A stretch of 64,000 nucleotides of DNA, taken from NCBI GenBank assembly GCA_963693365.1, contig CAVNZM010000015.1, positions 3,348,001 to 3,412,000 on the forward strand, written 5' to 3'. This document shows, one piece after another, positions 31,666-61,322 of this stretch (positions are counted from its first letter, which is position 1; the number at the start of each line of letters is the position of its first letter). Position numbers and translations under genes: made by a program. Under the pieces are notes generated by a model. It was not told where the DNA came from. It saw nothing but the letters and a program-made list of their open reading frames with translations, and did no database searches. This DNA is from Amoebidium appalachense (taxonomy: Eukaryota; Protista; Ichthyosporea).

Positions 31666-31701
<36 letters not shown>

Positions 31702-31906
31702 AACTCCCAGTGCAGACACAGACATCCACACACACACACACACAAAACAGGAGAACTGAATGATCCCATATGCTGACAACCATATGTCCCCTCCCCCCCC
31801 CCCCCCCCCCCCCCCCCCCCGCCTCCCTCTACATCCCTCCTTCCCCCCCCTGCCCCCCCCCCCCCCCCCCGCTCCCTCCCCCCTGTCTCCCCGGTCCCCA
31901 CCTCCC

Positions 31907-31937
<31 letters not shown>

Positions 31938-32280
31938 ACCCAAAACACACAAACGCAACAGGGTGTGTATCCGATTGGTGGTCCTCGTGTTGGTGACAAG
32001 ACCTTTGCCCGCCGCTACCAAGACATGGGCCTTGTAAATCGCACGATGCGCATGATCTACAAATCGGACGTCGTAATCGGCACCGTGTCGAACCCCCCTT
32101 CACGCACGTTGGACCCCAGAACTCGATTTTCGTTGTCGAGAACTGCCGCTACGAAGCACCGAACGCCGCCGCCAACGGAAATTCGCTCCTGAACAAAAAT
32201 GACGATCGCAGTTTGGCCGATCTTGCCGATGGGCTCCGTGACCACTACAGCTGGCTCATCCCCCGTGCCCTCTGGGAGAG
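29465..32280 (+). CDS. Secreted class 3 lipase (alpha/beta hydrolase), at least 5 exons; frameshift in C-run at ~32093-32098; final exon unresolved
   Basis: Exons 29465-29781, 29956-30194, 30726-30835, 31134-31334, 31962-~32280. Signal peptide MAPIAITRAFLLVALAASAQA; PGTDGVQQWMSNV; VKVHKGF; nucleophile elbow IVGHSRGGALA; GGPRVGDKTFA; KSDVV. After the frameshift: PFTHVG...LRDHYSW (candidate catalytic His). Confidence 0.88.
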
Positions 32281-34317: not shown

Positions 34318-36698
34318 TTAAGCAGCAGTTGCATTTTCCGTTGGTAGGTTTTCCGTTGGAACCTCAATGAAGCTCTCACTGGTTGATACGGGTGCGGCGG
34401 TGAAACTTTCACTAGTGGGTGCGGGTGCAGCCGTAGTGAAATTCTGCCCCGGGACAGGGACCCCCCCGGGGGGGCTCGAAACCACCTTTCCTGTGCTCGT
34501 AAATGTAGCGGTTCTATTTAGCCACATATTCAGAGCACTGAAGTACCCCCCGCCCATAATTGCGATCAACCTCCCGTTGGCGGCCGTATTATTGAACATA
34601 GTGGTTTGGTTGGAAATTGTCAGAGTTCCCCTCGGGTGAAGGGGGTTGTTGCTCGACCAAGAATCCCACACGGCGCTCAAATTTGCGACGTTTCCGATGA
34701 ATTCTGCGTTAATTACTGCTTTTCCGGTTAGGATGTTGTTTGCAATAGCGGCGCCGCGGCCCACGGGACATTGGTTGTAACGGAAAGAACCGTAAATTTC
34801 AGCCGTCCCTTCGATTCTTTCAAGCCATACAGCCCCACCGCGCGCCTTCCAACCAAACTCGCGCGCTTCGTTCGATTCGAACGTTGAATCCAAGATGGCT
34901 TTCGCGCCCTCTGCGATGCGGGCGATATGAAGGGCACCTCCGGCAGACGCCATGTTGTTTGAAAAGGTGCACGAGGAAACGGTGAGAGTAGAAGGGGAGT
35001 AAATAGTATCTGCAAAAAAGGCAGCACCGAGACTGTGCTTGAACCAGAATTTGTTTCCATCAAAACGCGTGTTGGTGACGCGCACGTCACCCATAATCTC
35101 CTTGATCCACACTGCGCCACCACCACCAAACATGTAAATCTGTTCGGTCCCATTCATGAAATCATGCACGACGTTCCCCTCAAAGCTACTGTGGTCGATT
35201 GTGAGCCCGGCCGTGCGACCAACGAAAATCGCCGATCCGCCGCGTGCGTAAGTTTCGAAATTTGTGAACGAGCAATCGTAAACGTTCAGGTTGACGGTAG
35301 TGGAAGAATACGTGGGGGCCCCGCCCGTCCCCAGATCGGGTGTACGAAAAGCGGTACAATCTCCGGTTCCCGATCGGGAAAACGCGATCCGACGAAGCGT
35401 GACGGTTTGGGAGTCGCCCGTGGCACGGAGCATACCGCCCCATGAGTTATTGAAACCGCACAAGAGTTGTGTGCGCGATTCGGAGTTGGGGTTTCCTTGA
35501 ATCGTAAGACTTTTTGAAAAGGCAATTTCCCTGGGAAGCACCATCCCATCCTTGAACACGGTGACAACGCCGCCGTCAGGTGCGCTGTTGATCGCCGTTG
35601 CTAGATCGTTGTAGCAGGCCTGAGGGGAACGAAAAGATGAGAAACCTAATTATCGGCAAATGGTATCATCAACCCCCCCTCCCCTCCCCCCCCCCCCCCC
35701 CCCCCCTCCCCCCCCTACACCCCAACAAAGAGGTTTATTAGTGTTCACCTAACCTTCACCACGATTTTCTCTTCCTCCAATGATTTATTTTGATGTGATT
35801 TTTTCTCCTTGTTCTGGATTTTGGATGTGAGCTCAACAAGTAGAGGGGAGATGTGTAGGAGAACAGAAGGGGGGGGAGGGGGGGGGGGAGAGAGAGAGAG
35901 AGAGGGGGGGGGGAGGGGGGGCTGTGAGTGTTGGGGTGTGCGTGTTGTGATTGTGTGAGGTGTGTGGAGGGGAGAAGAAGGGAGGGGGGAGAAGGGGGGG
36001 GGGGGGGGGCTGTGAGAGTGGTGTTTGGGTGTGGGTGTGTGAGGTGTGTGGAGGGGAAGGGGGGGGGGGTGGGGGGAGGGGAGGAGGGGGCGGGGAAGGG
36101 GGGAGTTGCTGGGGGAAGTAGGAATGGCTCTTTTTAATTTTCAGGAAAGGAAATCGTGAGGGTTGGCTGGAGGGCTGTGCTTGTCTTGTGCAACAACATT
36201 GAAGTGCGCAGGTGCATAGAGAGGTTGGTAGTGGCGGGGGGAGGGGAAGGGAGACTCCTGAGGATGAGGGAGGGGAATGAAAGGGCGGGTACATACGCTT
36301 CCAACACCCACGACAGGGCAAGTGGGGGTTTTCTCCAAGTAGCACTCCCCATTGGAGAGTGAAGCCCCCCCCATACATTCTGTGCACTGCGGCCATCCAT
36401 TTGAGCAAGTCTGTTGGGCGCAGTGAGGTAGGGTATCGCACTCCACAAAGCGTGTCGGCTCGGGGAATGTAAATAGATGTCATGAGTGGGGTTGGAGTTG
36501 AAATGGTGCTGGTGGGGGGGACGTCAGAAGTGGAAAGGAGGAGGTCTTGTGAGCCCGTGGGTATGGGTGCGATTGTCGTCTGCTCGGCTGCGGAATTCGA
36601 AGGGGAGTTCTTGGTTGCCATAACAACAGCCTGTTGGAGGATTTGTTTGTGTGTTAGGGTGATATGGGCGAGTCTTTTGTACACTTTTATCTCTTGGT

Positions 36699-43932: not shown

Positions 43933-45184
43933 GCGGGGTAAATTGGATCATGCCCCCTTGGACATTAGTTGGAAAAGGGGCAGTCTCACAATGGTGGGTT
44001 GACACGGAATGGGGGGGGGAAGGGGGGGGGGGGGGGGGGGACGAGGGGAGGGGGGTGGAGTGAGAGGTAGATGGAGAGCGATGAAGACAAAGTCACGATG
44101 GAGCAGAATCACGACTCTTTGGGACTTTTAAAAGGGAAGCCGTGTTGGTGTTTGTGTGCGCGCATGTGTGTGTGGTGGGGGGGAGCCGTGGGGGGGGGGG
44201 GGGGGGGGGGGGGACGGGGGGGGGCAGTTTTTCTTTTTCTTTTTTTTTTTGTCCCCTTTTTCTTTCTTTCTTTTTTTTTTTTGTTCTTTTTCCGATCTCT
44301 TTTTTTCTCTATTTCCTTTCTGGTAAGCAGGTTAAGGCAAGATGCAGAGTGGTCACGTCGAATGGGTAGGTTACAGGGAAGAGAGTGTCTTGCTCTTTGA
44401 TTGTGTTTATCTTCGCTTTTTCCCTTTCTTTTTGTTTTGCAGAAAATTTTTTGGAAGGAGGGGTGTGAATGGGGAGGGGGGGAGGAGAGAGGAGGAAAGG
44501 TAGTGGGCTCTTGGCTCATATCTGTGGGAAGTCCGTAATGTCTGATGATATTAATTATATTAATCAAAGGAGTGAAGATATAGTAGCATATCATGGTCCA
44601 GGGGTACAATCTTCAGTCAAGGCTGTGCTAGTATAAATATCCCATAGGATCTGTGAAGCCTTTTCATAGAGAGCAAAATGCCCATCTTTTCTAACAATTT
44701 CGCACCTTAAAACCCCCCACACCCGAAATTCAGGAGAAAAATTTTCATAGAGAAAATTGCCCATTTCTTTTTATATTTTCGCACCATAAAACCTCCCACG
44801 CCCGAAAATCAGGAGAAATTATGTCGTTTTTCTGATGTTTTTTCCCCTTTTCCAGGGCACTGATTACAGCCAGAGCACCACGGTAGACCTCGACAAAGAT
44901 TCGACCAATTGGAAACTTGTATTCGCTCACCAGCAGTGGGGCCAGCTGGTCACGTGCCTGATTATCATTGGCGGTTGCGGGGTTGCCTATTTTGGGTTTG
45001 AACCACACATTCAGCAGTTTGACTACACGCCAGTCAAGACAAACGACAACATAAATTTCCCCGATAAGACCTCTACGATTCCTGCCATATGGGCTGTCGT
45101 TCCACCGGTATCTTTGTTTGTGGTGAAGTGTGGATTCTATTTTTTGGTGGGAATATTCGGTTGACACACACGCACACCGGACCT

Positions 45185-45216
<32 letters not shown>

Positions 45217-45419
45217 CCCCCCCCCCCCCCCCCCCCCCCACACACACCGTGAGGCACATTCACACACATACACACAACCTCCCTTCCCCTGCTCCTTCGA
45301 AGAAATACCGTTGATGACGGGCTTTGTTCGACGGTCTTCTGCCTACCATTTGGGTTTGCAGTGCATTTCCTGCCACCCCGGGGGGAGGGGGTGGGGTGGG
45401 GGGGGGGGGGGGGGGGGGG

Positions 45420-45459
<40 letters not shown>

Positions 45460-46441
45460 GACGTGTCCGGGAGCTTTCTCTTTGTGTGTGGTGGGGCGGG
45501 GCAGGGGGGAGGGGGGGGGGAGATACACTACATCCGCTCGACTCGGGACGGGGAAATGGAATCATATGGAGGATATGAAGGGGACAACAAAACGAGAAAT
45601 GGAACGTAGTAGATTTGTGTGCGAGCGAGGAGGGGATATTCCTAGACTGCAGCCTGCACCTAGAAGAAATTTAGTTGCATTTTATATACTTTTCATTCTC
45701 ACCCTTCTCATCCCATATTACTCATACCTTCCCCCCTCCCACCCGCCCTCCCCCTTCTTTCCTCCCCCCACTCCCCTCTCCCACCCGCCCACCCTCGTCC
45801 CTCCCCGCCCATGAGCCAACACAGACAAACCTCCCTCCCTATCCCTCCCTCCCCCCCCCTCCCCCTCCCCCCCCCCCCTCCCCCTCCGCTCTCTCCCCCT
45901 CCCCCCCCCCCCCCCCTCTCTGCCACCGACATTCACTCCCTCTCTCTCTGCAACCCCCCCCCCCCCCCCCCCCCCCCAGCTCGTTGCCATGGTAATCAAC
46001 ATCTTTGTGGTGGAGTTCTACCATCTCGGTCAGGCCCACTGCTATCCCACATTCAAGTGGCAGGCTGCCATACACTACCTGTTTGGAGGTTTCTCGGGTT
46101 TCTTTGTTGTCACGTTCTGCCAACAGGTATGTTCGGATCTCTTTGTGTCTCTCTCTTTCCGATTTCGGGTTTGTCATTTTTGTGACGTTTTGAAGTATGT
46201 CCTTTGGTGTCTCCTCCATATCGCCAACCCTCTAACGCATACATCACCCCCCCCCCCCCCCCCCCCCCCCCCCCCTTTGCCACCTCCTCAAATCACTCAC
46301 ACATGCATACGCCACCACACACATACACATACACCCATTTGGGCGCGCGCGCACACACACACGCACACGCACACACACACGCACACGCACACGCACACAC
46401 GCACATGCACACGCGCGTGCACACACACACACAAATGCGTG

Positions 46442-46479
<38 letters not shown>

Positions 46480-46690
46480 ACACCACACACGCATATGCAC
46501 GCGCGCGCACACACACACAAACCCGCCACCAGTATAAACAAACAAAACCAAAAGAGAGGAAAACAAAGATAACGAAACGAAAAGAACCGATGCGGGAGTG
46601 AACAAACGAAACTGTTAAAAAGAAAATATGCACGTAGACTGACAAAAAGTAAAATTAAGGCCTCCTTTTCCCTCTCCCCGCTCCCCCCCC

Positions 46691-46721
<31 letters not shown>

Positions 46722-47026
46722 ACGCACATGTACACCACCACCACCACCACCACCACCACCACCACCACCATCTTCGTAAGCACACCCCCTCCCCCCCCTT
46801 CTCCCCTCACCCCTTCCCCGCCACCAAATCCCGTATTCTTCTCCACCACCTGGATTTGTTTTTTTCCCAAGACTTCATTGGGTTCCAAGCCACCCACACA
46901 CATCAAAAAGCACACATTGGCGTGCACACACCCGTCACACACTTGATACACGCACACACGGATACGCGCGCACGCATGCATGCACGCACATGCACGCGAA
47001 CACACACACATACACGCGCGCGCGTG

Positions 47027-47061
<35 letters not shown>

Positions 47062-47102
47062 GCACAAACATAAACACGCTCACCCACACAAACACACAGA
47101 CG

Positions 47103-47138
<36 letters not shown>

Positions 47139-47766
47139 TCTACCCACCCACCCACACATATATCACAATCCTCTCCCACAATTCCATTTCAACTTTGCCC
47201 CTCTCGCTCCCTCACGCCCCATCACGCTCCATTAAACCCAAACTGTTCATCAGATTTTCGCTCTTCAAGCCGGTGAGCTCCGACCCGACTTCGTTGCCAT
47301 CTGCCAACCTCAATTCATCAACAGTACGTGGGTGTGCACCAACCCAGACACCTCATCCGTTGAAGACGCCCGGAAAACATTTTTCAGCGGCCACGCCAGC
47401 TCCGCTTCCTACGGCGCCGTTTTCTCCTTCCTCTACGTGCTTGTCTCCCTTGGGAGCAGGTTTAACAGGGCTCGCAAGAACAACCCTTCTCTTCAGTCCG
47501 TCCCCAACGGAAACGCGTGCGTGAAACAAACTGTAGACGCTCTGTGGCTCGCGTGGCTCCTTGCATGGATTTGTTTCGCAATTGCTGTCGGCGTGACTCG
47601 GATCACAGACTATAGGCACCGCGCAGTCGATGTTACAGCGGGGTTGTTTATGGGAAGTTTGTTTGCGTCCATTTTCTTTTTTTAAGACTTATGCATACCA
47701 TGATAGGACTGTTTGGGGCCTGGGAAGTGCGACGGTGAGAGCGGTTTCGCAAGCAAAGGAAGCGTG
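43373..47766 (+). CDS. PAP2-superfamily lipid phosphate phosphatase-like membrane protein, 4 exons
   Basis: Exons 43373-43510, 44856-45122, 45980-46126, 47254-47685 (to ~47766 if one T is removed from the T-run at 47677-47683). Motifs [37 protein letters not shown] and multiple hydrophobic helices. Confidence 0.9.
46155..46246. repeat. Intronic dispersed repeat family A, copy 3 (reverse complement of copies 1 and 2)
   Basis: ttttgtgacgtttt..cctttggtgtctcctccatatcgccaaccctctaacgcatacatc. Confidence 0.8.
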
Positions 47767-47811: not shown

Positions 47812-48805
47812 CACACACCACCACAACACCACCACCACGGGGTTGCCCCATTGCACAGTTGAGCACGCTTTCATAATTAATTGGTGTTGTAATGAAGTCC
47901 TTTGTATACACAGTCCAAGTCAAAGTTCAAAGTTATCGACATTCCGTAAAAGTTTTCCGCGCACATTCCGTGTATAAGACTTCTGATTTAGCCTCACACA
48001 TTTTATATACCATCATAAGTTTTGGGACAGACGCGTCGGCTTTCTTTGACCATGAAGCAAGGTGGCACCCACGATTTCTTCATGTAATTATGTATGGCTA
48101 CTATTCGCAATATATAAGAAAAGTGCATGAGGAACCGATCAGTGTCAACATGTTGCTAAAGACGCCACAATGCTTGGCTGTGTTTTTTTCTACGCCACAC
48201 ATAGACCTTGGCATTTTTCACTGGTTTATTGGTTTGATCGGCGGCTGGAATTTGTTTTGTCCATGCACTATGGCAGGGAACACAGTTGTGAAGGACACTG
48301 AAGTATTATCAGACGGTAGATGCCATGTGGTATGGAGGGTGCCAACGAGAAGGCCTGCAGTAATATGTATTTCGAGAGTCTGCTAACTGGTGTAAACTAT
48401 TTGTTCCACTTGTGCATGATTATTGCATACCATTTGTGCATAGTCATAAGGATTCGCATCCACAAGTGACATCATCCAATCTCAAAAGGTGTTGTAAAGA
48501 ATTGAGTGGAGCCTTGAGCACAGCGCGACACTGCCAACTGTCGAGTTTCCACACCTTGTAATGATATCCGAAGGGGTATGCATATGTTCTCGTACAAGAC
48601 GAAATGCTCAAAATAATGTAACAAATATTCGGCTGGTGCACGTGATGCACGACCTATTGTGATAAGGCATAGTGGTGGGGATCAAATAAACCTGAACCTG
48701 AGACTTGAAAACAGAAAGAAATTTTTTAAAGGAAGGGGGTCCTATAATTTGGAGAAACTGTGCAACCACGTCACGGTGAAATGTCTATGTAAAAACAAGA
48801 CTCCC

Positions 48806-48836
<31 letters not shown>

Positions 48837-48849
48837 AAAAAATAATAAT

Positions 48850-48880
<31 letters not shown>

Positions 48881-49517
48881 GGGGGGGAGAAGAGGGGAAG
48901 GATTCGGGGGGGGGGGGGGGGGGGGGGAGGATCTGAGCTAATGGGGTGGACTATCAGTCATGCATCTGTGCTTTAGAATTCTTAATTAACACTTTAATTT
49001 GAAGTCTGAGCTTTACTTCCAACCTTAAATTATGTAATGACTTGCATTACTCTATTCCAATCTCACCCTTGCTAGCTGAATCTTCACTGCATGTCCCACA
49101 GATTATATTTGGAGTTATTTTACAAACATCCACCACCAAACAGGCATTCATCACGGCAATATATTTTGACTGAGTCAGACCATAAATTAAGGTATACACT
49201 AGTACTGCTACTCACCATTCCATAGCTCTGAGTCTATTTATACATTTAAAATTCACGCACATTTGGCGCAAAACAGCCAATCACCGCGGTAGGGTGTGCC
49301 CGGAGCGCTGCCCATGAGCCAGCCTACGCCGTTCGCTCCCTTGTCGATTATCTCCGAAGAGAGCTGCAAGAAAAATTGGGAGGCACGTGTCAGAAAGACC
49401 GTGTGGCAGATAGACCATGGTCCTGTCCTGTTTGCGCATTTCCTGTCTATGTAGTGTGTGTAGGAAACACCTTGCCCCCATTTATGCACACTACTACATA
49501 TGGGGGCGCGGCACCCC

Positions 49518-49553
49518 GTGGATGTGACGTCACAGGTGTGACGTCACATCCAC
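49518..49553. promoter_or_regulatory. Perfect 17-bp inverted repeat containing two TGTGACGTCACA (CRE/ATF-like) palindromes
   Basis: gtggatgtgacgtcaca-gg-tgtgacgtcacatccac. Confidence 0.75.
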
Positions 49554-49829
49554 ACGGTCCCGCAGCCCCCAAAGATATGGCATATGTGGATATGAGGTGT
49601 GTGATATCTGTGTATATCGCGACATGGGATATGAGATATGGGTGGATATATGTACAGGAGCACGTGCACACACTGTGTGTGTGCAAAACACGTGCAGCGC
49701 ACGTGGTTTTAATTAAAAAATTAAATAGAGAGGGCGGAACACGTGTACGCGTACGTGTACGCGTACATGTGGTGCGCACACGTACAGGTGCTGCGGATCC
49801 AAGGAATGCGAGAATTCTGAATTCCGGCG

Positions 49830-49997
49830 AAAACTGACCAATGGGAATTCGAATCCTGAATTCAATGGGAAACTGACCAATGGAAATAGTCGCCCAATGG
49901 GAATTAAGAGGCGAAAAAGCAAATTTGCCGGAACAATGACCAATCAGAACGCGTAAGCCGAAATCTGTACATTCCATCCCGAAACTGACCAATAGGA
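49830..49997 (+). promoter_or_regulatory. Cluster of five CCAAT-containing repeats (aactgaccaatgg-type) upstream of the viral-like ORF
   Basis: Copies near 49831, 49870, 49891, 49935, 49981. Confidence 0.65.
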
Positions 49998-50285
49998 CCG
50001 CGAATGGCTCATTGTTTTTGGTAAACAGAGGCGGCCGGCCGGCGGCGGCCAGACACGCGCACAGACTTGTTGTTTTTGCGTACTGCTTCGTGAGATTTGG
50101 AGAGATTTTTGCTTTTGAGATTTCACTGGGCTTTGAGATTTAATAGACACAGGCACAGAGACGTTATTTTGCATGCTGTTTTTTATTGAGGCATTGCTCT
50201 GGCACAGCCAGGCTAGCAACCATCGATTAGATTGATACTTGAGATTTATAAGATTACAGCCTGAGATCTAAGGTTACCATTCAAG

Positions 50286-51786
50286 ATATTCAGCGAGAGC
50301 CAGGAAGAGTTTGAAGATGATCTGTTGCGGGCACTGGATGCCGACCCGCAGCAGGTCCTGCAGGCCCACCCCTTCCTGCAGGCCATGTTGGCCCCACCAC
50401 CCCCACCCCCACCCCCTCCCCGGCCAGCCCCCCGCCCCCGCCCCCATCAATCACCCCGATGACCCCCAGATCATTGCCATGCCGGCCGAGGGCAACTGGC
50501 GACTGCGTTCCCGTGTAGATGACATGCAGGCACGGGGACTGGGTGTGCGTGGCCACACCCTCGAGTACCAACCCCTGCGCACCCTTGACGTGACTGAGTT
50601 CCCCCAGTTTTTTGCAGCCATGCTGTTCGATGCCATGGCCCGTGCAGATGTGCAGGCGGGGGACATGCTGATTGTGCGTATCATCAGCCTGCACGTGCAG
50701 GCCAACGGTGTGGACAACCAGATGGGGGATGATGGCAACCCCAACGCCGACGTGACCAACCGTCGTGTGTTTACTGCCGGCCCCATGGAGGTGTTCAATG
50801 GTGATGTCAACGCCGTGGTGCTCAAGCTGATGGAGAACATACGGCAACGCACCCAGAGTGCAGCCGAGACCTTCATGGACGGCAGATCCACCGTGCATCT
50901 GACGGTGGCCCGACCCCAGGACATGGTGAGGAGGGGGGCCTGCGGGTCCCTGTCCACCACCACGGGGGTGAATGCACGGTGGCTGCAGGATCTGGTGGAG
51001 GCCAAGGCCGTGGTGGATGTGACCGCCCTCGTGCAGGCTGCCTGCAGCACCGACGACCCACAGGTGACCGGGGAGAGGGCCCTCGACCACCAGCAGCTGC
51101 ACGGCTTTGCCTACGGCCCCAACTGTGCCCAGCTGTGCCTGTTGTACAGCATGGTGATGTGGGTGAAGAAGGCAGCCAATGGCAACGAGCAGGCCAGCCT
51201 GCCCACCGAGCACACACGCAAGGTGCTGGGCAAGGGGGGCAACCTCATGGATCGCAAGGACCACCACGTGCTGTGCCACCTGCTGACCCCGGAGGAGGTG
51301 TTGGGGGCCGGCAACACGACCCTGGGGGTGTCGAGATCTTCCGGCTGTGGGGTGTGCAACCTGCTACTCCCCCCCACAGATCCAAGGAGCCACCACCAAG
51401 ACCGTTACCTGCGGAGATTGGTGAGGGCAACCCGAGTGCTGTGGACCAAGTACGACCTGCCTGTGCCTGCAGAGGACGGCCTGACGGTGGATGAGCTGGG
51501 GGCAGCCGTGGATGCCCTCAACACAGCCATTGCCGAGCAGCCTGAGTCAGTCACCCGCGTGCGGCTGGTGGTGGTGGACATGGACAGCGGGGCCAAAGTG
51601 CTACGCCGGTACGGGGACCTGAGCATGGCCCTGCCCCCCTCCAAGCTGTGCACCATGTACTTGGCCCACTCCCAGAAGCTGGGCCACTTCACGGCCATCA
51701 CCTCCAGTGTCAGCACGACCATCGAGCGCCTACGACACAGCAACCACACGGGGGAGGCACGACGGAACCTCAGCACCTGCTACTAC
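50286..51786 (+). CDS. Truncated N-terminal region (terminal protein / vOTU-like) of a Polinton/adintovirus-type protein-primed DNA polymerase B
   Basis: Intronless, strong C/G third-position bias. The order NCAQLCLL ... RLVRATRVLWTKYDLPVP..GLTVDELG ... VRLVVVD ... MYLAH..GHFTAITS ... TCYY follows the remembered Polinton pPolB pattern (C-L..A-I; L...G.p...gleEi..f; i.vv; iyL...gHf.vI.s; C..C). The N-terminus (FSESQEEFEDDLLRALDADPQQVLQAHPFLQAML) is in another frame, joined across the C-rich run at ~50395-50445. The ORF-track tail beyond 51786 is host read-through. Confidence 0.6.
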
Positions 51787-52037
51787 CCTCTGTCCTCCAT
51801 CTCACCCCCAACCCCACCCAGCTCTGAAGGAACAACAGTTGTAAACAGACTATGTACGCTGTCAGACTATCAGGGGATTAGGGGATTATGTTCTCTTTCT
51901 GCAACGATTTTCCACAGACCCCCCCCCCCCCCCCTCCCCCTCCCCCCCGGCCCCCCCACTCCCCTTCCTAAAATGCACACAGGCACACATGCAAGTAAGC
52001 GCACGCACGCACACCCACAGCCGCACACACACGCGCG

Positions 52038-52069
<32 letters not shown>

Positions 52070-52209
52070 TCCGGTTGTATCCCTCGCTTATAAAAATGTG
52101 ATTCATGTTGTTCTAATAGAGTTTTGCCGGCAGGTGAAACAGCGGGCACAAGCATTTCTGGAACAGCTGTGGGAGCTAGCAGGTGCGTGTGCGTGTGTGT
52201 GTGTGTGTG

Positions 52210-52253
<44 letters not shown>

Positions 52254-52312
52254 TGAGCGAGTGTGTGTGTGTGAGTGTGTGAGTGTGTGTGTGTGAGTGT
52301 GTGAGTGTGCGT

Positions 52313-52353
<41 letters not shown>

Positions 52354-52801
52354 TGTGTGTGGGTGTGTGTGAGTGTGTGTGGGTATGGGTGTGTGTGTGT
52401 ACGTGGGTGGGTGGGTGGGTGGGTGGGTGGGGGTGGGTGTGTGTGGGGGGGGGGGGGGGGGGGGGGGTATGGGTGGGTGGGTGGGTGTGTGGGTGGGTGG
52501 GGGGAGGGTGTGTGTGTGTGTGTGTGTGTATGTGGTGTGCGAAAAAAAAGGTGAGGGGGAGGGGAGTAAGGGGGTAGGATAGCGATTTCTGACTCATGCT
52601 GTGAAAACAACACCACCAGGCCCCAGTATACGGCACATAGGGGTTGGCAGCCATTCAGGGTTCATACAGGCACTGCTTGCCCAGGTTGGGCATGTGGGCT
52701 ACAGGCCTATGAATGCTGAGATGATCCCTGTGGTCTTAAGGTGTGTGGGTGATTTGTGGGGTTTTGGATTTTGTTTTTTTTTTTTTTTTTGTTTTGTTTT
52801 G

Positions 52802-52860
<59 letters not shown>

Positions 52861-53115
52861 GGGGGGTTTGGTGGTTGTTTTGATTTGGCTGTGGGTTTTG
52901 GTGGTTGGATTTTTTTTTTTTTTTTTTTTTTTTTGGCCCCTTGAAATTAGGTTCGTGTTGTATTGTTTTCGGTGTGGTGTTGTGGGATACGGGCCTATGA
53001 ACTCAGAGATGGTCCCTGTGGTATTTAGGTACGTGGGTGGTGGTGTGTGGTTATTTAGGTTTTGGTGTTGGATTTCTCGTGGTTTTTTTTTTTTTTTTTT
53101 TTTCCTTTTTCTTTG

Positions 53116-53247
<132 letters not shown>

Positions 53248-53424
53248 TTATGGGTTGGATTATTTTTTTTTATTTTTTATTTTTTATTTTTGGCTTTTTT
53301 TGAATTTGGCATCGTGTGGTACTGTTTATATTGGTCGGGCTTGTGGGATACGGGCCTATGAAGACGGATATGGTCCCTATGGTGTTAAGGCCCATGGTGT
53401 TTTTGGGTTCTGGATTTCTGTGTT

Positions 53425-54185
53425 TAATTGGGTGGGTATAAATGTGTATAGTAGTAGGTGTTTATAAGTATGTAAGTGGGTTTGTATAGATGTGTAAGTG
53501 TGTGTGTCTGTGTGGGGGGGGATGTGTGTATGTGTGGGGGGAAGGGGGGTGAGGGTGGAGGGGGGTTGATGTTTAAATGCGGGGGGGGGGGGGGGAGGAA
53601 TGTAAAGTTGTTGTATAAGTGGGTGTGTATAAATATATCAAATGAGAGACAAAAAGACACCAGTTGGTAAGTATAAATCTGGACGTGGATGTGGATAGTG
53701 GGTGTGTATAAATATATCAAATGAGAGGCAAAAAGACACCAGTTGGTAAGTATAAATCTGGACGTGGATGTGGATAAATGCATGAGTGATTTGTGTAAGT
53801 ATACACTCATGTGGGAACAATGTCGAAGTGGGTGTGTACAAATGTATGAATGGGTGCCTCCATATGTGTCAGGTAGAAATGTAAAAATGGGGGTATGTAT
53901 AAATGTTTAAGTGGATTGGTGTATGTCTATGTGGTGTGAATAAATATGTAATGGATGTGTATGAATAACGGATGTGTAGAAGTCCATTTGTGGGTGGGTA
54001 TATGTGCAAAATGGATGCTTATAAATTTGTAACTTGGTGCGTGTAAATTCATAAGGGGGTGGGTATAAATGTATAGTGGATATGTATAAAAATCTTAAGT
54101 ATAAGTGGGTGCGTATAAATGTCTAAGTGGCCACGTTTTCATGCATGAGCGTGTTCGTATAAATGTTTGGCTGGTATAAATGTTA
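53425..54185. repeat. Degenerate minisatellite (gtgggtgtgtataaatgt-like) with a near-perfect 2 x ~80-bp duplication at ~53618-53776
   Basis: Directly visible. Confidence 0.8.
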
Positions 54186-55412
54186 AATTATGTAGTGGAT
54201 GCTGACCGTGTTACTACAGGGCACAGGTAGGAGAGGAAAAGGCAGGGAGCACAAATCTGCACATCTATGTCGCACTGGTGTGAAGCCCCCCTCTCCCCCC
54301 TCCCCCCCCCCCCTCCCCCCCCCCCCCCCTCTTTCCTTCTCTTCCTCTTATAGCTTTTCTCTTGGTCCACTGCCCTGCCTTCTTCCCCTCCCCGCGCTTT
54401 CGCCCCTCATATGTTATTCCCCCCCCCCCCTTCCCATGGACAGGGGAAGGGGCGGTCTGAGGTCAGGAGGGAGAGAGAGAGAGTGTGTGTGTGAGGGCAA
54501 GTGAGACTGAGAGTGTGAAACCCGAACATGCATGCGGAGACGAGAGAGGGGGGAAGGAGTCGGGGAGGTGGGAGAGAGAGGGGAGGGGGGGGGGAGGGAA
54601 GGGGACATCTAGGGGCGCCAAAAGCAAACAGAGGCACATACCACAAACGGATGCACGTACACACGAATAGCAATTTCATCTCCCTGATCGCTCCTTCCCC
54701 CCCCTTCCCCCTCCCCGCCCCCCTCTCTCATCCCCTCCACCAACCACCACCATCACTCCCAACATGTACACATACACACGCATACAATTACTGGCACACC
54801 TTTGGGTGCGTGCGCAGACACACGTGCACACACGCATACACGAAAACACGTTTTATTGTTATTATTATTTTACTTATTTTATTAGTTCTGATTGGCCACT
54901 TTACTTACACGGTCGTTTTAACTTCTAACAGGCCATCGTGATTGGTGGGTTTGGCGTGGGTGTGCTGGGTCTGCTCGTGTGGAGGAAGATGGGCAGGCGC
55001 AAGAGACAGGAACAGACACAAAGCAACATGTGGCTTCCGGTGGAGGACGAGGAGGATGAAAACATGTAGGGACGGTGTTTTTGGTTTAGTTTGCCGTATC
55101 TCCGTGTATGAAATAATGCAGGGAACATCCAATACGTGGTGTTTTTGGTTGAGTTTTCCGAATCTCCTGGATTTATCGGCGTTTAGGAGAGTGAAACATG
55201 TAGGGAGTATCAAAAAAAAACTGTGTTTTTGGTTTGGTTTTACGAGTTTCCCATGTCAGAGGGGGGGGGAAACAATTCGATAATAGAGAAACCCGGGCGT
55301 TTTGGGGTTCTTTTTCTTAGTTTTCCCCAACTCGAGGCACAAACTCAGGCTAACGCGTGGTTGCCTGTACATGTGGAGGACGAGGAGGAGGATGAAAACA
55401 TGTAGGGAACAT

Positions 55413-55812
55413 CGTGGTGACGTCATGCGTGACAAATGTTTCCGGCCCGGCTGTGCTGACTTGGCTGACGTAAGCTTAATTAAGACAGCAGAGTCGTAGA
55501 AGAGCAAAATAGATGACGAGGACGTTTTTTGACCTATACCCTTTAACCCTATTTTCCCTTATGCTAGCCATTGAAGTCTTTCAGTAGCTTGTGGAGCTTA
55601 GACAGACGAGCGAAGCGCTTTACAGCCCAAGGGGACCCATTCGCCTGCGAGCTGTGACGTCATACTTGGCGTAAGAGTCCAGTGGTGTGTGTCTGGAAGT
55701 CTATGGTCGAATATTTCATGGTTCCTTTGATGATCAGAGTACCTCGTCCCATTACCTCCACACATGCCTAGTCGAGCATGAGCTCTTTGTCGTAAGTAGC
55801 ACTTGCGGCAAC
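55413..55812. repeat. Left arm of long inverted repeat (interrupted by a ~190-bp insert at ~55457-55646)
   Basis: 55413-55456 plus 55647-55812 is the diverged reverse complement of 61092-61322. Confidence 0.85.
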
Positions 55813-57433
55813 CCAAAGTAACTAATTTTGCACTTCTTTTCGGGTTCGACAAGAGTTTTTTCCGGACATGGTGTACAAAACAAAATAATCAGTACTGAAG
55901 CTATGGCAGCTCGTGATCACATAGATGCTGTTTGGCCTAGTCTATTTCGCCCGTTGACTCTTAATGAGTCCTGAAATAACAGGGCTGGCTGACAAAGAGC
56001 TTGTCGAGACCTTGATCGAGACAGTTGTTAACGAGCATGCTGTTCAAGTTTGTCCTGATGACTAAGTCAAGCTGAAGCTTCGATTCCATGAAAGCGATGC
56101 GGATAGTACACACACACATGCACAAACACTAAGTTACCCCTGCCATTCACTTGCTAACAAACATCAACCATACTCTTGCTGTCCCCTCTCTCTTGTTCAA
56201 CACGTGCTTACTCTTAAGAGATTCGACCACCCTTTTCCTTTTGCCTCTTACTATCCCCCCGATTCCGTGCTTGCTTACTTGATACCCCCCCATTCATGCT
56301 CAACCACACACACACATGCATGAATTTGCTTTTTCTCCCCTCCCTCCCCTATCACCCCCCATGACTTTTTTATCTCCCTTCTCTCCTCGGAACCACAACT
56401 ATTTCGTACTCTGGCTCACCTCACACACACGCTTTCACACACTTTCTCTCTACTTTCGAACCACCCACCAACCCACTCGCCGTCCCTTCTCGTATATCTC
56501 CTATTTGCGCACTATCTACAGAAGTGAGCTATCGAGAGATTCACATTCGTTTTTAGATTCTATTATTATATATCTTTTATATTATATTTGCCCAACAATC
56601 TCTGTTCCTCGTTCCCTATAGTTGTTGAAAACCTTTGTGACACGTCCTTAATATGACCTATGAATGCTAAGGCTTAATGCCAGTTTTTGCAAATGATTGA
56701 CAACACTGTCATTTTTTGGTATAAAGCTGATAGACCCACACAGGAATCCAACTAAGCGCGGGGCATGGCTTCTGTGCTTCTGTGATGAGCCATGCTTATC
56801 ATTGCACAGTATAGCTAGCTTTAAGATGTCTAGTGTGTATGAACACATCAGGACATCTTGGCACCCTGGCACCCGGAATGGATAACGAGGGGGTAGAAGA
56901 GAGGAGTAGAACGGGCAGAAATCAAATCAACTGCCGCCGAGCTGCAGCGGCGAGACCCTAAGACGGCATCACCAGGGCCACGATCTCTTGGGAAGGCTTC
57001 TGCGTCTGCATGGCATTTAAGTGCGTAGTCAACTTGAGAGAAAGGTCATTCCAGCCTTATGTATTGATGTGGTCGTCAGCAAGGGTGAAGTGTCGATAGT
57101 GTAGGTCATTCGATAGAGGCAGCAGCTTACGGCTCCGACTAAAAAAATTCAAAACAAACGGTGTCCCTTGCTTCACTCAAATAAACGGCTAGCTATTGCC
57201 ACCTGGGCCCTGCAAGCGCTTTCACTGACCTTCACTCATATCCACTTTGCATGTCTTACAACTGGACTTGTACATCATCAACCTATGCCACGATCTCATA
57301 AACAACCTTCAAAAAATCAGTTTCCTAACAGCGAACAAATATATCTAAAACGAGTTTGCTGCATGCCCAGGCTCAAAGACGCCGGAAGTAACTCAACCAT
57401 AACAACTTCTTACGAGGACCTCTGACCAAGCAT

Positions 57434-57865
57434 CTACTGCCCGGCCTTGGGATGGGGCTGGAAAGGGTAGTCTGCAGACAGGCCGGTCTTCACCAGAACA
57501 TCCCACGTAAACGCCTTGAAGGCTTCCACCTCCCTCTGGTGCTTCTGCTCCTGTATCTCCAGCTTGTGCTCAAACAACTCCCTCTGGGCATCCATTTCCT
57601 TTTCCTTGCTATGCAGCTCAACCTCGAAGACCGCCTGAGTCTTGCTGATCTTTTCCTTTAGAGCTTCCTTTAGAGCTACCTCCTTGACCTCGAAGACCGC
57701 TTGAGTCTTGCTGATCTTTTCCTCCAGAACTGCAGTGCGCTGACGGTTTGCCTCAACGTAATGCCACGTAGCCCCGAACGTCCCAAACAGGGCCACCGCT
57801 GCGGTAATATTTGTTGCATTGTCGGTGAAGGCCTGAAAAAACCGTTGCGCCCAGTGGGTTGTCAT
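57434..57865 (-). CDS. Intronless 143-aa protein: N-terminal hydrophobic/TM segment plus coiled coil with internal repeat; function unknown
   Basis: Clean ORF with coding-like codon use; ITAAVALFGTFGATWHYV; EKISKTQAVFEV occurs twice. Confidence 0.65.
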   Translation of the reverse strand: MTTHWAQRFFQAFTDNATNITAAVALFGTFGATWHYVEANRQRTAVLEEKISKTQAVFEVKEVALKEALKEKISKTQAVFEVELHSKEKEMDAQRELFEHKLEIQEQKHQREVEAFKAFTWDVLVKTGLSADYPFQPHPKAGQ

Positions 57866-58538
57866 TTTTCTCTGACGACTTCTTGGTAGACTAGAGCAAG
57901 GCCTCCTTCCTGCAAATGAAAATGGGCGAGCGATTGGGCAAACTGATGATCATGTATGTTCGCAGACAAGGGTCGACGGGTCGCTTTTCGGGCCAGCACT
58001 CCAGATGTTCGCATGGAAAAGCAGGGAAACCCAGTCCGAAGTGGGTTTCAAAACTTTAAGGTGAAATCATATATTTTAAAAAGTAAAATATCATGCTATC
58101 GTATGCATTTATTACGGATATTATGTAATAAATATCATGCTATGTCTTTAGGGGGTAAACCTGCAAATCGTGAGAACTTTTCCCAGAAACTCGTATATCT
58201 TGTGAAGGGATGATTATTTTTAATAGCGGAAAAAACCTTTATAATACAATTTTAAGTCCTCTACTAGGAACTGGTACTTAAAACAACAAAGCGACAGCAG
58301 TTTAGTTCAGGCAGTTGATTTGTCGACCATACCTTCAAATCAATTAGAGAACCCTGTAGATCATGATACTATTAGGCTCTTGACTGTCGGATGATCGATC
58401 TATCACATGTCGCCGCAAAACAAAACAAGAGGTCCCGTCGAGTGCCCACACTATCTATTCTCCCACTTTCTCCTAGCTCTTTTTACGGTCACTAAAACTC
58501 CGAGGCTTCGAGGCCAAACATACACAAGGACAAGTAAA

Positions 58539-59021
58539 ATGGCATTTGCCGACATTATTCTTGTGCCCCGGCTTGACACAAGCGACATGGTTGACATAGA
58601 GTACAAGGATGATGCGCAGTTACTGAAAATCAAGCACTATCCTCACTTGGAAGTCCTGCTTACCATCTGGGAGGATACAGCACACATATACTACGCAAAC
58701 GTCACAACTGCGGAATATGAAGCTGTTCTGCGTCAAAAGGAACTCTTTATTTTTAAACAATCAGACGGCAGCCCCATAGTCCGACGCTCGTGGGCATCAC
58801 ATCATCCTCCGTGTCACTCCCACTTCCTTCACCTTCTTCCCCTACATCTTCCCACATGCTCCTCCCCCTGTATCTCTCCTCCCACTCCTCCTTTGCGCTC
58901 TGTTCCCCTCGCCCTCCTGTGCGTACTCGCTTTCGCTAACATCCTGCTCCGCATCATTGGTGGTGTTGTTCGGTTTCGCTGCGGCGCTTGTGTTCTCCAA
59001 CCCCTTGTTCCGTGTCTTTAG
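58539..59021 (+). CDS. Possible convergent second ORF inside the transposon, unknown function
   Basis: MAFADIILVPRLDTSDMVDIEYKDDAQLLKIKHYPHLEVLLTIWEDTAHIYY.. looks globular for ~85 aa; the remainder overlaps the transposase antisense. Confidence 0.35.
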   Translation: MAFADIILVPRLDTSDMVDIEYKDDAQLLKIKHYPHLEVLLTIWEDTAHIYYANVTTAEYEAVLRQKELFIFKQSDGSPIVRRSWASHHPPCHSHFLHLLPLHLPTCSSPCISPPTPPLRSVPLALLCVLAFANILLRIIGGVVRFRCGACVLQPLVPCL

Positions 59022-60429
59022 GTGCCGCTTGCACAGTCGCACCCCTCCGTGTTCGTGGCTTGGCATGGCTTTGAGGCCACAAAGTTCCCCCGACTGCTTG
59101 TTTGCTTGGCAGGGACCGATAACCAGTGCCACTAAGGCCTTTTGCTTCTTTCTTCCCTCCGCTGCCTTTGCCCGTTCCTCCTTCTTCTGCTTCTCCTCCG
59201 CCACAACACGTTCCTTCTCTCTTCTGCCGTCCAAGTGCTGCTCGCTTGTTCCGATCATGCACCCCTGTTGCTTTTTCTGTTTTCGCACTATCGTGGCGTT
59301 GCTGTTTGGGTTGCGTTCTGCGAGTGGTGCTCGACCGTGTGGTGGTGTTTGCTGGGGCGTGCTGGTGGGGTCGGCTGTTTGCACGGGGGGTTGGGTGGGG
59401 AGGGGGCCTGCCTGCTCGGGACGAATGTTGTGCACTGTACCGAACCGCTGTCTTGCTGTTTTGAGGGCAAAGACTTCTGCCTCCAATTCGGGTGTCGCCG
59501 GGTGTGCTCGAGGTATATTGTGCTGGTGCTCCAACCGTCATCAGAGTAGGCTAGCAACGCGTCTGGGTGGATATACTTAACGGCCGTTTCCATTAAATTT
59601 TCCTCTGACATGAGACTCGAGGGCACTACAATGGTGGGTGGGAGGGCGTCACCGGACGCAACAATAGTAGGAATGATGGATAGGTGCCAGTCTTGCTCCG
59701 CAAACCCATAGACGACTTTGTATGTTTTTCATGTCTGTGACCGTGAGAAGTTTCTGACCCGCACGCACGTTGGTTATGCGCAGTTGTTTCTCGTCGTCAT
59801 TGAACAGATTCTTCAGAATCTCCACGTTTATCTGCTTTTCTTCCACCAGTTCCTCCACCATATCAAACCACGAATTCATCTTCTCCTCCGTGAGAGCGGA
59901 AACGCGCGCTTTCGAAAGTTCGTTTGGTTTGCGGAAATTGAGGTTGTAATTATAACCGTGCTGTTTGGCACGGCGTTCGAACAAATTGAACCACCCCTCA
60001 CCCGGAAGCCAGTCTGCTGTATTGAATTTTTTGCCGTTACGCTCAGCAATGTCCCGTGCAGACCTGAGAACTTCAGCACGAGAAACCCCCAACCCCCTCC
60101 CAGCCAGGAACACCAGCCCACTAGCAAGGCCAATCTCCTCATCTCAGTGTTAGAATGGGCTTAGGGCCCGGTTTCTTGTTTCCATACTCAGGGTCTTTTT
60201 TGTGTCTGTATAGGGTTGCAACGGAAATGCCAGTGGTTGCAGCTACTTCGGCAACCCGTTGCTTGACTGAGCTTCTCTTCTTTAGCTGTCTAGTTGCCTG
60301 TTCCATGAACATGGGATTATACTTGGGCCCGTACTTGTAACCCTGCTTTATTACACTAGGTGCACTGCGAGTGGGCCCTTTTTTGCGAAGCTTAGGCATA
60401 TGCTTGTTTTTTTTGGGAGCCTTTGCCAT
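58842..60429 (-). pseudogene. Broken pogo-family transposase: HTH (psq-like), CENP-B HTH, start of the DDE region, deleted core, basic C-terminus with Cys/His knuckle
   Basis: VAEVAATTGISVATLYRH..KPGPKPILT (frameshift ~60145); GLGVSRAEVLRSARDI..PGEGWFNLFERR; FRKPNELSKAR..NLFNDDEK (cf. IFNxDETG); DDE core absent after ~59700; C-terminal CQANKQSGELC..RLCKRH. Confidence 0.85.
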
Positions 60430-61091
60430 TTTCTGACACGCAGTTACAACAGTGCTGTACTATGCTAGTGTTGTGGTCAGTAATGAAGGCCAATGCTACC
60501 CCGAGCATCACGTGCTCACACCAGCTACCTACCCCTACACAATTACACCCAAACAAAGACAAAAACTACTCAGAAACACTTATTTAGTTGAAAAGAAAGT
60601 GGTTTGTGCCCGTTTATTATGTACTTTTGTTGAACATGTCTGAAGGGTTTTGGTCAGCAGCTCATGAGAGCTCACATTTCACGTTCTGGGTATCGGAGAA
60701 GCGCCGTTTTTTTTTGCCGTTGCAGGCCTGAGTGCCAGTAACCGCCCCACCCATTTCCCCGCCCATATTCAAACAAAACCAATGAGAAAAAAAGCACAAA
60801 AAAAGAAAATAACCAAGTATGGGATCATAAGTTTCTCACGATTTACAGGGCTCTCAAGATTTGCAGGTTTGCCCCTATATGTGTGCATGGAAAATGAAAG
60901 GGGATTATGACGTCAGAGATGGAAAATGAAGGACCTCCATATCGGACATCGAACCCCCTCAACCAGGGGGATGCACATTTCCCCCCTCCTCAATATCGTG
61001 TATACAGGATATTTGAGATGCTCGTGTGACCTGGAAGCGGTGGAATTTTTTCTCAAGCCGCCCATTCCCAACCCAGGGGGGAGTTAGCCCC

Positions 61092-61322
61092 GGTTGCCGC
61101 AAGTACTACTGTACGACAAGGAGCTCATGCTCGACTAGGCATGTGTGGAGCTGGCATTGTAATGGGACGAGGTACTCTGATCATAAAAGGAACATGAAAT
61201 ATTCGACCATAGACTTCCAGGCAACTTGCACAGATACACCTGTGGACTATTCCACGCCAAGTATGACGTCACAGCTCGCACAGCCGGGCCGGAAACATAT
61301 GCCACGCATGACGTCACCACGA
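61092..61322. repeat. Right arm of long inverted repeat
   Basis: Reverse complement of 55413-55812 without the insert. Confidence 0.85.

What the first reader, a model, noticed from the sequence alone, without database searches (positions are those of the whole stretch)
49491..51786. End of a Polinton/adintovirus-like virus inside a short host intron, bounded by CTACTAC direct repeats
Seen: identical 7-mers CTACTAC at 49491 and 51780 mark where composition changes. Removing the insert rejoins a GT.. segment (~49451) to a C-rich ..CCCAG acceptor (51821), giving one intron of ~80 nt. The insert holds ~0.8 kb of structured non-coding DNA and an intronless GC3-rich ORF cut at the right boundary. 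Known: Polintons/adintoviruses have protein-primed polB near one end and normally leave ~6-bp duplications flanking two TIRs. Inference: only one end is present and there is no second TIR. This suggests integrase-independent capture or microhomology-mediated truncation of a linear viral genome. CTACTAC may itself be the viral terminal short repeat used in protein priming (cf. CATCAT of adenovirus, AGTAGT of Polintons).
Basis: partly seen in the sequence, partly recalled or inferred. Interest (0 to 1): 0.8.

Follow-up and report, generated by a model that had tools for sequence, protein, structure and literature searches.

The report
Broken-off end of a Polinton virus
A 2.3-kb leftover end of a multi-copy element, predicted to be an integrated Polinton-type DNA virus with the priming and protease domains of its polymerase, was likely joined to host DNA through a short sequence match and later copied several times; it is a very divergent member of a known virus group, not a new mechanism.

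Summary
The 7-mers, the structured non-coding DNA and the cut GC3-rich ORF are real. No sequence search finds a relative. The N-terminal domain folds like the little finger of Y-family polymerases (Z 7.6-7.8), the published signature of the terminal-protein domain of Polinton pPolB. Six pPolB motif blocks match in order (0 of 400 shuffles). It is likely the terminal-protein + vOTU stub of a divergent Polinton/adintovirus.

Public runs show a multi-copy family (roughly 10-35 times flank depth) and a true left end, shared with copies that have other flanks. Most of those copies begin CACTAC, so the 7-mer is not itself the viral end.

Against a one-off insert: the right junction and at least 400 nt beyond it lie at about 6-7 times left-flank depth. 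No empty site appeared in the 3 runs covering both flanks. The host intron is possible but unproven. Best reading: microhomology joining at one host CTACTAC, then copying of stub plus flank. Host not determined.

The parts
49489..49500 (+). Left terminus of the element. This copy reads TACTAC from 49492 (or CACTACTAC from 49489); most other copies begin CACTAC.
   Evidence: Depth rises from flank level (22.6 / 9.0 / 19.6) to hundreds or thousands. Contigs with unrelated flanks join at 49493 (X19 1, X13 1, X7 3 contigs) and at 49492 (X13 1).
49491..49497 (+). Left CTACTAC; its last 5 nt (ACTAC) are shared with the family's end motif.
49497..49572 (.). About 75-nt sub-terminal hairpin with two TGACGTCA palindromes.
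   Evidence: Arms 49502-49534 / 49537-49569, 85% complementary; DNA fold -37.3 kcal/mol for 49489-49600, z -7.6, 0 of 200 shuffles.
49573..50285 (+). Non-coding terminal and likely promoter region: CACGTG palindromes and four AAACTGACCAAT-type repeats (49831-50005).
   Evidence: multi-copy. Promoter function is inferred.
50286..50462 (+). Acidic, Pro-rich leader of the ORF; no start codon in this copy and out of frame with the main ORF at the C-rich tract (the frame break could be an assembly slip in a homopolymer).
   Evidence: the read-laying tool skipped 50388-50449 as a repeat.
50536..50931 (+). Predicted terminal-protein (D1) domain of pPolB, residues 20-151 of P0001; Ser127 (50857) is the likely DNA-linking residue, between helix 2 and the last strand.
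   Evidence: Model pLDDT 65.8, pTM 0.59. 50 of 50 rows and 10 of the top 11 rows of a 48,161-chain search are Y-family little-finger domains. Ser127 aligns to a Ser invariant in 75 pPolBs.
51115..51708 (+). Predicted vOTU protease (D2) domain; Cys220 (51136) and His403 (51685) sit at the invariant Cys and His columns of 75 pPolBs.
   Evidence: Ordered-block test: His block 0 of 300 shuffles, Cys block alone 51 of 300. The fold of this part was not modelled with confidence.
51780..51786 (+). Right CTACTAC, where the ORF is cut inside a CxxC motif; its first 4 nt (CTAC) are shared with uncut copies.
   Evidence: Two X7 contigs leave the window sequence after 51783 and go on with a second Cys.
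51787..52185 (+). Host-like DNA right of the cut (C-rich acceptor-like AG at 51820-51821, microsatellites), itself multi-copy and joined to the cut ORF; right limit unknown.
   Evidence: One X7 contig of 191 nt at depth 112.4 bridges 51741-51915 against a left flank of 19.6. X1 164.8 vs 22.6, X2 56.1 vs 9.0; X7 142.3 at 52108-52185.
49314..49450 (+). Possible host exon (ATG 49314, GT donor 49451) on the low-depth left flank; unproven.
   Evidence: Frame stays open when joined to 51822. No Pfam family for the overlapping 195-aa frame; this frame itself was not scanned.

Best explanation
This is the 2.3-kb left end of a multi-copy element, predicted to be a Polinton/adintovirus-type virus whose cut gene encodes the terminal-protein and protease domains of a protein-primed polymerase, likely joined to host DNA through short matches to one host CTACTAC and later copied about six times with its right flank. 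Shown: the true left end, the multi-copy family, the cut inside the ORF, and the raised depth of the junction and right flank. Predicted: the two domains. Inferred: the host 7-mer matches the viral end by 5 nt (ACTAC) and the inside of pPolB by 4 nt (CTAC), so repair of a break would leave the 7-mer on both sides of a one-ended fragment. The later copies most likely arose by ectopic recombination or segmental duplication through the other family copies, which needs no second end. The stub cannot replicate: no exonuclease or palm domain follows in the window.
For: Fold: Y-family little finger, Z 7.6, rmsd 4.0, 107 aligned and Z 7.8, rmsd 3.6, 108 aligned; PMC11071308 reports this as the best PDB hit of pPolB D1/TP domains. 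BFVD lists an adintovirus protein (E 0.008), a phage terminal protein (E 0.015) and a MELD-virus PolB (E 0.02) at ranks 2, 4 and 7. Motifs: six blocks in order score 48.5 against shuffles of mean 4.3, max 22.0, 0 of 400; hhalign 27.3 against a maximum of 21.7 in 60 shuffles. End and copy number. Microhomology: both 7-mers depart from the family majority towards the same word (inference). No second TIR and no rest of pPolB downstream.
Against: No sequence search is significant; an HMM of 75 pPolBs gives P0001 -3.0 bits. Z under 8 can be a common arrangement, and an unrelated chain (5l9w) ties at 7.3. The motif blocks were chosen after seeing the query; 4 of 6 are not significant alone, and spacings are longer than in all 75 references (Ser-Cys 93 vs 48-61, Cys-His 183 vs 87-137, His-Cys 31 vs 17). 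A TACTAC end also occurs in another copy (X13), so the left 7-mer need not come from the host. Only one contig (X7) bridges the right junction, and contig depth is not a copy number. Nothing was laid beyond 52185, so the copying route is not tested.
Confidence: 0.5

Rival explanations
1. A full-length virus integrated normally with a 6-bp duplication (TACTAC). A microhomology deletion from inside pPolB to the right-hand duplication then removed the rest, and a slip shortened the left end. The empty site would be the same, but the insertion was integrase-made.
For: Intact Mavericks have 6-bp duplications and 96% of vertebrate loci are degraded (PMC8097293 passages); truncated adintoviruses are reported in Amoebidium (PMC11244446 passages). 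The family has many dispersed copies with different flanks.
Against: It needs two later events and a chance match at the first C of the 7-mer (inference).
Confidence: 0.2
2. A non-autonomous derivative: the viral left end and TP-vOTU stub fused once to captured host DNA, and a helper virus has since moved the unit to about 6 sites. This window holds one such copy, so its right flank is cargo and there is no host intron here.
For: Junction and at least 400 nt to its right are about 6-7 times the depth of the left flank, which begins exactly at the viral end. The window differs from the multi-copy contigs at 51802 in 3 of 3 runs.
Against: No inverted end in the 12.2 kb to the right. The only candidate (54189-54197) is the last of 9 similar array units and has no matching target duplication. 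The exact 7-mer on the left would be partly chance.
Confidence: 0.2
3. A CACTA/EnSpm- or Plavaka-type cut-and-paste transposon (5'-CAC..GTG-3' ends, subterminal repeats) that carries a captured piece of viral pPolB and is moved by a CMC transposase.
For: Most copies begin CACTAC, as do EnSpm ends (5'-CAC..GTG-3', 3-bp duplications; PMC12730594 passages). A TATAAAT array (14 of 17 window copies, 53437-54175) ends at TATGTAGTG.
Against: No 2- or 3-bp duplication (GCA left, GAT right). The motif is an array unit. Uncut copies continue the pPolB CxxC. The end followed by pPolB is the usual Polinton layout (recalled).
Confidence: 0.07
4. The ORF is an ordinary host exon and the repeat is chance.
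For: No sequence homologue among viral or other proteins.
Against: Multi-copy depth, a sharp shared end with unrelated flanks, TP-like fold and pPolB motif order, 1.3 kb without microsatellite introns in a window full of them.
Confidence: 0.02

Closest known systems
Polintons / Mavericks / adintoviruses (class Polintoviricetes), pPolB with TP-vOTU-EXO-PALM order (PMC11071308)
   Same: Predicted TP fold with Ser between helix 2 and the last strand, Cys and His at the vOTU columns, CxxC after it; short end motif close to a repeated trinucleotide; dispersed integrated copies.
   Different: No detectable sequence similarity; longer spacers than in all 75 references; end motif (C/T)ACTAC instead of the (AGT)2, (AG)3 or (AC)3A motifs of vertebrate Mavericks (PMC8097293 passages); one end only; 7-bp direct repeat instead of a 6-bp duplication outside two TIRs.
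Endogenous adintoviruses of Amoebidium appalachense (PMC11244446)
   Same: Tens of integrated copies in an intron-rich eukaryote genome, some truncated and degenerating.
   Different: No sequence comparison was possible and the host of this window was not determined. The passages read give no end motifs and no multi-copy truncation junction.
Polinton-like viruses and transpovirons with Tlr1-like helicase; cytoplasmic linear plasmids (PMC11071308)
   Same: Also carry vOTU and, in some, a PRD1-like TP domain.
   Different: The CxxC right after the His strand matches the 75 Polinton-type pPolBs, but what follows the cut was not seen, so these groups are not excluded.
CACTA/EnSpm and Plavaka transposons (CMCT clade; PMC12730594)
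   Same: 5'-CAC end, subterminal repeats.
   Different: No transposase in the stub, no 2-3-bp duplication, no matching right end found.

Membership tests
Polinton/Maverick/adintovirus | pPolB N-terminus with a PRD1-like terminal-protein domain (LF/PAD fold, linking Ser/Tyr between helix 2 and last strand) | tested here: met
   Predicted model only; Ser127 block 0 of 300 shuffles; Z 7.6-7.8 is middling.
Polinton/Maverick/adintovirus | vOTU domain with catalytic Cys and His after the TP | tested here: inconclusive
   His block 0 of 300, Cys block 51 of 300 alone, order test 0 of 400; no confident fold of this part.
Polinton/Maverick/adintovirus | pPolB exonuclease and palm domains | tested here: inconclusive
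   Not in the window downstream of the cut. The copy is truncated; uncut copies could be seen for 15 nt only.
Polinton/Maverick/adintovirus | Retroviral-type integrase, packaging ATPase, protease, capsid genes | not testable with these tools
   No genome held; none among 110 window frames scanned with Pfam.
Polinton/Maverick/adintovirus | Two terminal inverted repeats | tested here: inconclusive
   No second end in the window for this truncated copy. Contigs in X13 and X19 share the end only up to 49537 and then differ, which may be a second end with a TIR of about 46 nt.
Polinton/Maverick/adintovirus | 6-bp end motif of short repeats | tested here: met
   (C/T)ACTAC in 5 of 5 listed end rows of other copies; not one of the three vertebrate motifs.
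Polinton/Maverick/adintovirus | 6-bp target duplication outside the TIRs | tested here: inconclusive
   No right end to test against; a 7-bp repeat overlaps the end motif instead.
CACTA/EnSpm/Plavaka (CMCT) | 5'-CAC..GTG-3' ends | tested here: inconclusive
   Left end CACTAC in most copies; the candidate right end at 54197 is an array unit.
CACTA/EnSpm/Plavaka (CMCT) | 2-3-bp target duplication | tested here: not met
   GCA left of 49489, GAT right of 54197; holds only for that candidate end.
CACTA/EnSpm/Plavaka (CMCT) | DDE transposase | tested here: inconclusive
   No Pfam family for P0001; a non-autonomous element would lack it.

The most novel reading that the evidence does not exclude
A one-ended virus stub acts as a handle: helper Polintons recognise its end and copy it together with downstream host exons to new sites, a Polinton counterpart of Pack-MULEs, without a second inverted end.
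Probability: 0.15. Interest if true: 0.7.

Novelty: new member of a known kind. Interest (0 to 1): 0.36.

Why it matters
It marks a Polinton/adintovirus lineage whose polymerase N-terminus has no sequence match among 1.84 billion cluster representatives and is recognisable only by fold and motif order, with an end motif and a sub-terminal hairpin unlike the vertebrate types. The locus may keep a readable record of how such viruses are cut down (a duplicated 7-mer matching both the viral end and the cut site) and how the stubs then spread host DNA. Degraded Polinton copies as such are common.

Tried and rejected
No genome held. Sequence searches with P0001 found nothing: Pfam, 7990 longer candidates, 1.84 billion representatives, viral and metagenome contigs, ESM Atlas whole (best 0.79, caspase-like, below the useful range) and residues 295-436. 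Foldseek on the whole model gave no E <= 0.001 in BFVD or PDB. The end motif was not found in viral or metagenome contigs. A first motif pattern for reference polymerases found nothing; a second gave 3 near-identical loci with a C-terminal fragment only, used as seed. 75 of the 120 listed proteins (those of 1200 aa or more) were used; 45 shorter ones were dropped. tblastn of those 75 on the window gave 3 weak rows (E 0.003-0.044), none downstream of the cut, taken as chance. Empty site: no joint skipping the insert in the 7 of 24 listed runs that were laid, but only X1, X2 and X7 cover the left flank and contigs drop rare variants, so this is not absence; the X2 flank contig stops at 49496 for an unknown reason. 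No RNA holder listed. X15 shows mostly C>T differences and was not used. One search's splice test used one upstream frame twice; one search replaced it and reversed my first reading. Candidate right end 54189-54197 rejected as an array unit. Rfam: nothing at a gathering score in 48500-55500. Host lineage: a search with a PAP2 exon found nothing. Trinucleotide counts showed no window-wide CGC loss. Earlier scan findings: none in 4 look-ups. Literature: 'Polinton'+'TACTAC' gave 3 listings, none about end motifs by title or abstract start; 'Polinton'+'terminal inverted repeats'+'AGTAGT' gave 0; searches for non-autonomous or cargo-carrying Polintons listed mostly reviews and general transposon surveys (listings only, except passages of two). 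The library lacks most subscription papers, and figure panels of the PMC11244446 supplement were not readable, so prior description is not excluded.

Full report
Observation. CTACTAC stands at 49491 and 51780 and the match is exactly 7 nt. Between them lie about 800 nt of structured non-coding DNA and an ORF. The non-coding part has a hairpin at about 49497-49572 (z -7.6, 0 of 200 shuffles), four 24-nt CCAAT repeats and excess CCAAT, TGACGTCA and CACGTG. The ORF P0001 (50479-51786, 436 aa, GC3 0.82) is cut at CYY. The leader from 50286 has no start codon and is in another frame. No inverted copy of the end exists in the window.

The protein. All sequence searches were blank. A single-sequence model was poor overall (pLDDT 42.6), but residues 1-154 folded alone at pLDDT 65.8, pTM 0.59. 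Re-alignment of Foldseek's PDB matches gave 50 of 50 rows in Y-family polymerases, model 20-151 on the little-finger domain (Z 7.6, rmsd 4.0, 107 aligned). An independent search of 48,161 chains gave 10 of the top 11 (Z 7.8, rmsd 3.6, 108 aligned; one unrelated chain ties at 7.3). Krupovic et al. (PMC11071308; passages and Results parts 1-2 of 3 read) report that the terminal-protein domain of Polinton pPolB has this fold and these best hits, a linking Ser/Tyr between helix 2 and the last strand, and a vOTU protease after it. BFVD put an adintovirus protein, a phage terminal protein and a MELD PolB at ranks 2, 4 and 7 (E 0.008-0.02; the best row, E 1.5e-4, is unnamed).

To test motifs I fetched 120 Polinton-type pPolBs and used the 75 of 1200 aa or more. 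Their HMM does not detect P0001 (-3.0 bits). Six blocks taken from their conserved columns match in order with score 48.5 against 4.3 +/- 6.1 (0 of 400 shuffles). The Ser127 block and the His403 block are each 0 of 300; the other four are not significant alone (51, 95, 95 and 222 of 300). The blocks were chosen after I had seen the query, and the spacings exceed the reference range. hhalign scores 27.3 against at most 21.7 in 60 shuffles, probability 10%. Together this makes TP + vOTU of a divergent pPolB likely, not proven. The rest of the polymerase is not downstream in the window.

The element in public runs. 7 of 24 listed runs were laid; all are contigs, whose depth is only a rough guide to copies. 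In X1, X2 and X7 the left flank has depth 22.6, 9.0 and 19.6, and single contigs inside the insert have about 10-35 times that. The left junction is bridged in X7 and just so in X1. Contigs with unrelated flanks join at 49493 (X19, X13, three in X7) and 49492 (X13). Of five listed end rows, four read CACTAC and one TACTAC. So the edge is a true end, but the 7-mer is not the end motif; vertebrate Mavericks have (AGT)2, (AG)3 or (AC)3A, TIRs of 46-1447 bp and 6-bp duplications (PMC8097293 passages). Two X7 contigs leave the window sequence after 51783 and complete a CxxC, so uncut copies exist.

The right side is not unique DNA. One X7 contig at depth 112.4 runs from 51741 across the cut to 51915, and X7 depth at 52108-52185 is 142.3. 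X1 and X2 give 164.8 and 56.1 right of the cut. These are 5.7 to 7.3 times the left flank. No joint skipping the insert appeared in the three runs that cover both flanks, which does not show absence.

Mechanism. Both 7-mers depart from the family majority towards the same word: the left shares ACTAC with the usual end, the right shares CTAC with uncut pPolB. One other copy has a TACTAC end, which weakens this. Normal integration with a 6-bp duplication followed by microhomology deletions gives the same sequence and cannot be separated here. The intron is possible: donor 49451 joined to 51822 keeps the frame from ATG 49314 open, but so do 4 of 9 comparable pairs (which corrects), and no RNA run tests it. 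The roughly six copies of junction plus right flank must have arisen after the cut. With no second end in 12.2 kb, ectopic recombination through other family copies is my first choice and helper-driven movement of a cargo-carrying derivative the second. A CACTA-type reading of the CACTAC end (PMC12730594 passages) lacks a target duplication, and its candidate right end is an array unit.

Comparison and verdict. It works like the left arm of a Polinton/adintovirus. Membership rests on the predicted TP domain, motif order and end motif; integrase, capsid genes, TIR pair and duplication could not be tested. Degraded copies are the rule in vertebrates (96%), and truncated adintoviruses are described in the protist Amoebidium (PMC11244446, passages and supplement legends). 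The host of this window was not determined. Passages of PMC8502044, PMC3014272, PMC6431247 and 10.64898/2026.06.19.733378 added background only. New member of a known kind; interest 0.36.

Noticed in passing
window 55412-61322: A second, 5.9-kb element bounded by inverted repeats (45 nt at 96%, 190 nt at 84%), with a broken transposase-like frame on the minus strand at 59000-60450 (HTH_7 E 0.003; pogo/Tigger-like by recall) and two more ORFs (57434-57949 -, 58407-59021 +). Its ends also hold GTGACGTCA.
   Followed up: partly
window 49781 (run X13): A contig leaves the element at 49781 and ends in a poly-A run about 60 nt after ATTAAA motifs; a 2221-nt contig at depth 348 runs into the element end. 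The terminus may supply a poly(A) site to read-through transcripts, if that run is RNA (it is listed as DNA?).
   Followed up: no
window 49537 (runs X13, X19): Contigs share the end only up to the hairpin apex and continue with other sequence: possibly the second end (TIR about 46 nt) or a sister family.
   Followed up: no
window 51827-51869: A 43-nt stretch found in at least 9 other X7 contigs with unrelated neighbours: the end of another dispersed repeat.
   Followed up: no
window 52600-54197: Three degenerate units of about 350 nt with microsatellites and donor-like sites, then a TATAAAT/AGTGG minisatellite with a 79-nt duplication.
   Followed up: partly
window 26757, 49448, 54189: TATGTAGTG, the reverse complement of the family's first 9 nt, occurs 3 times besides the end itself (0.43 expected); the copy at 49448 lies 32 nt left of the element.
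   Followed up: partly
window 44790-47685, 31128-32189, 34318-35544: Host genes: PAP2 phosphatase (E 1e-14), class 3 lipase and a Chlam_PMP-repeat protein, with long microsatellite-rich introns.
   Followed up: no
L001:5421-6545 (same in L002, L003): A C-terminal Polinton-type pPolB fragment among ankyrin-repeat-like genes in three large viral contigs; a full-length relative at 82% identity exists (P0002).
   Followed up: no
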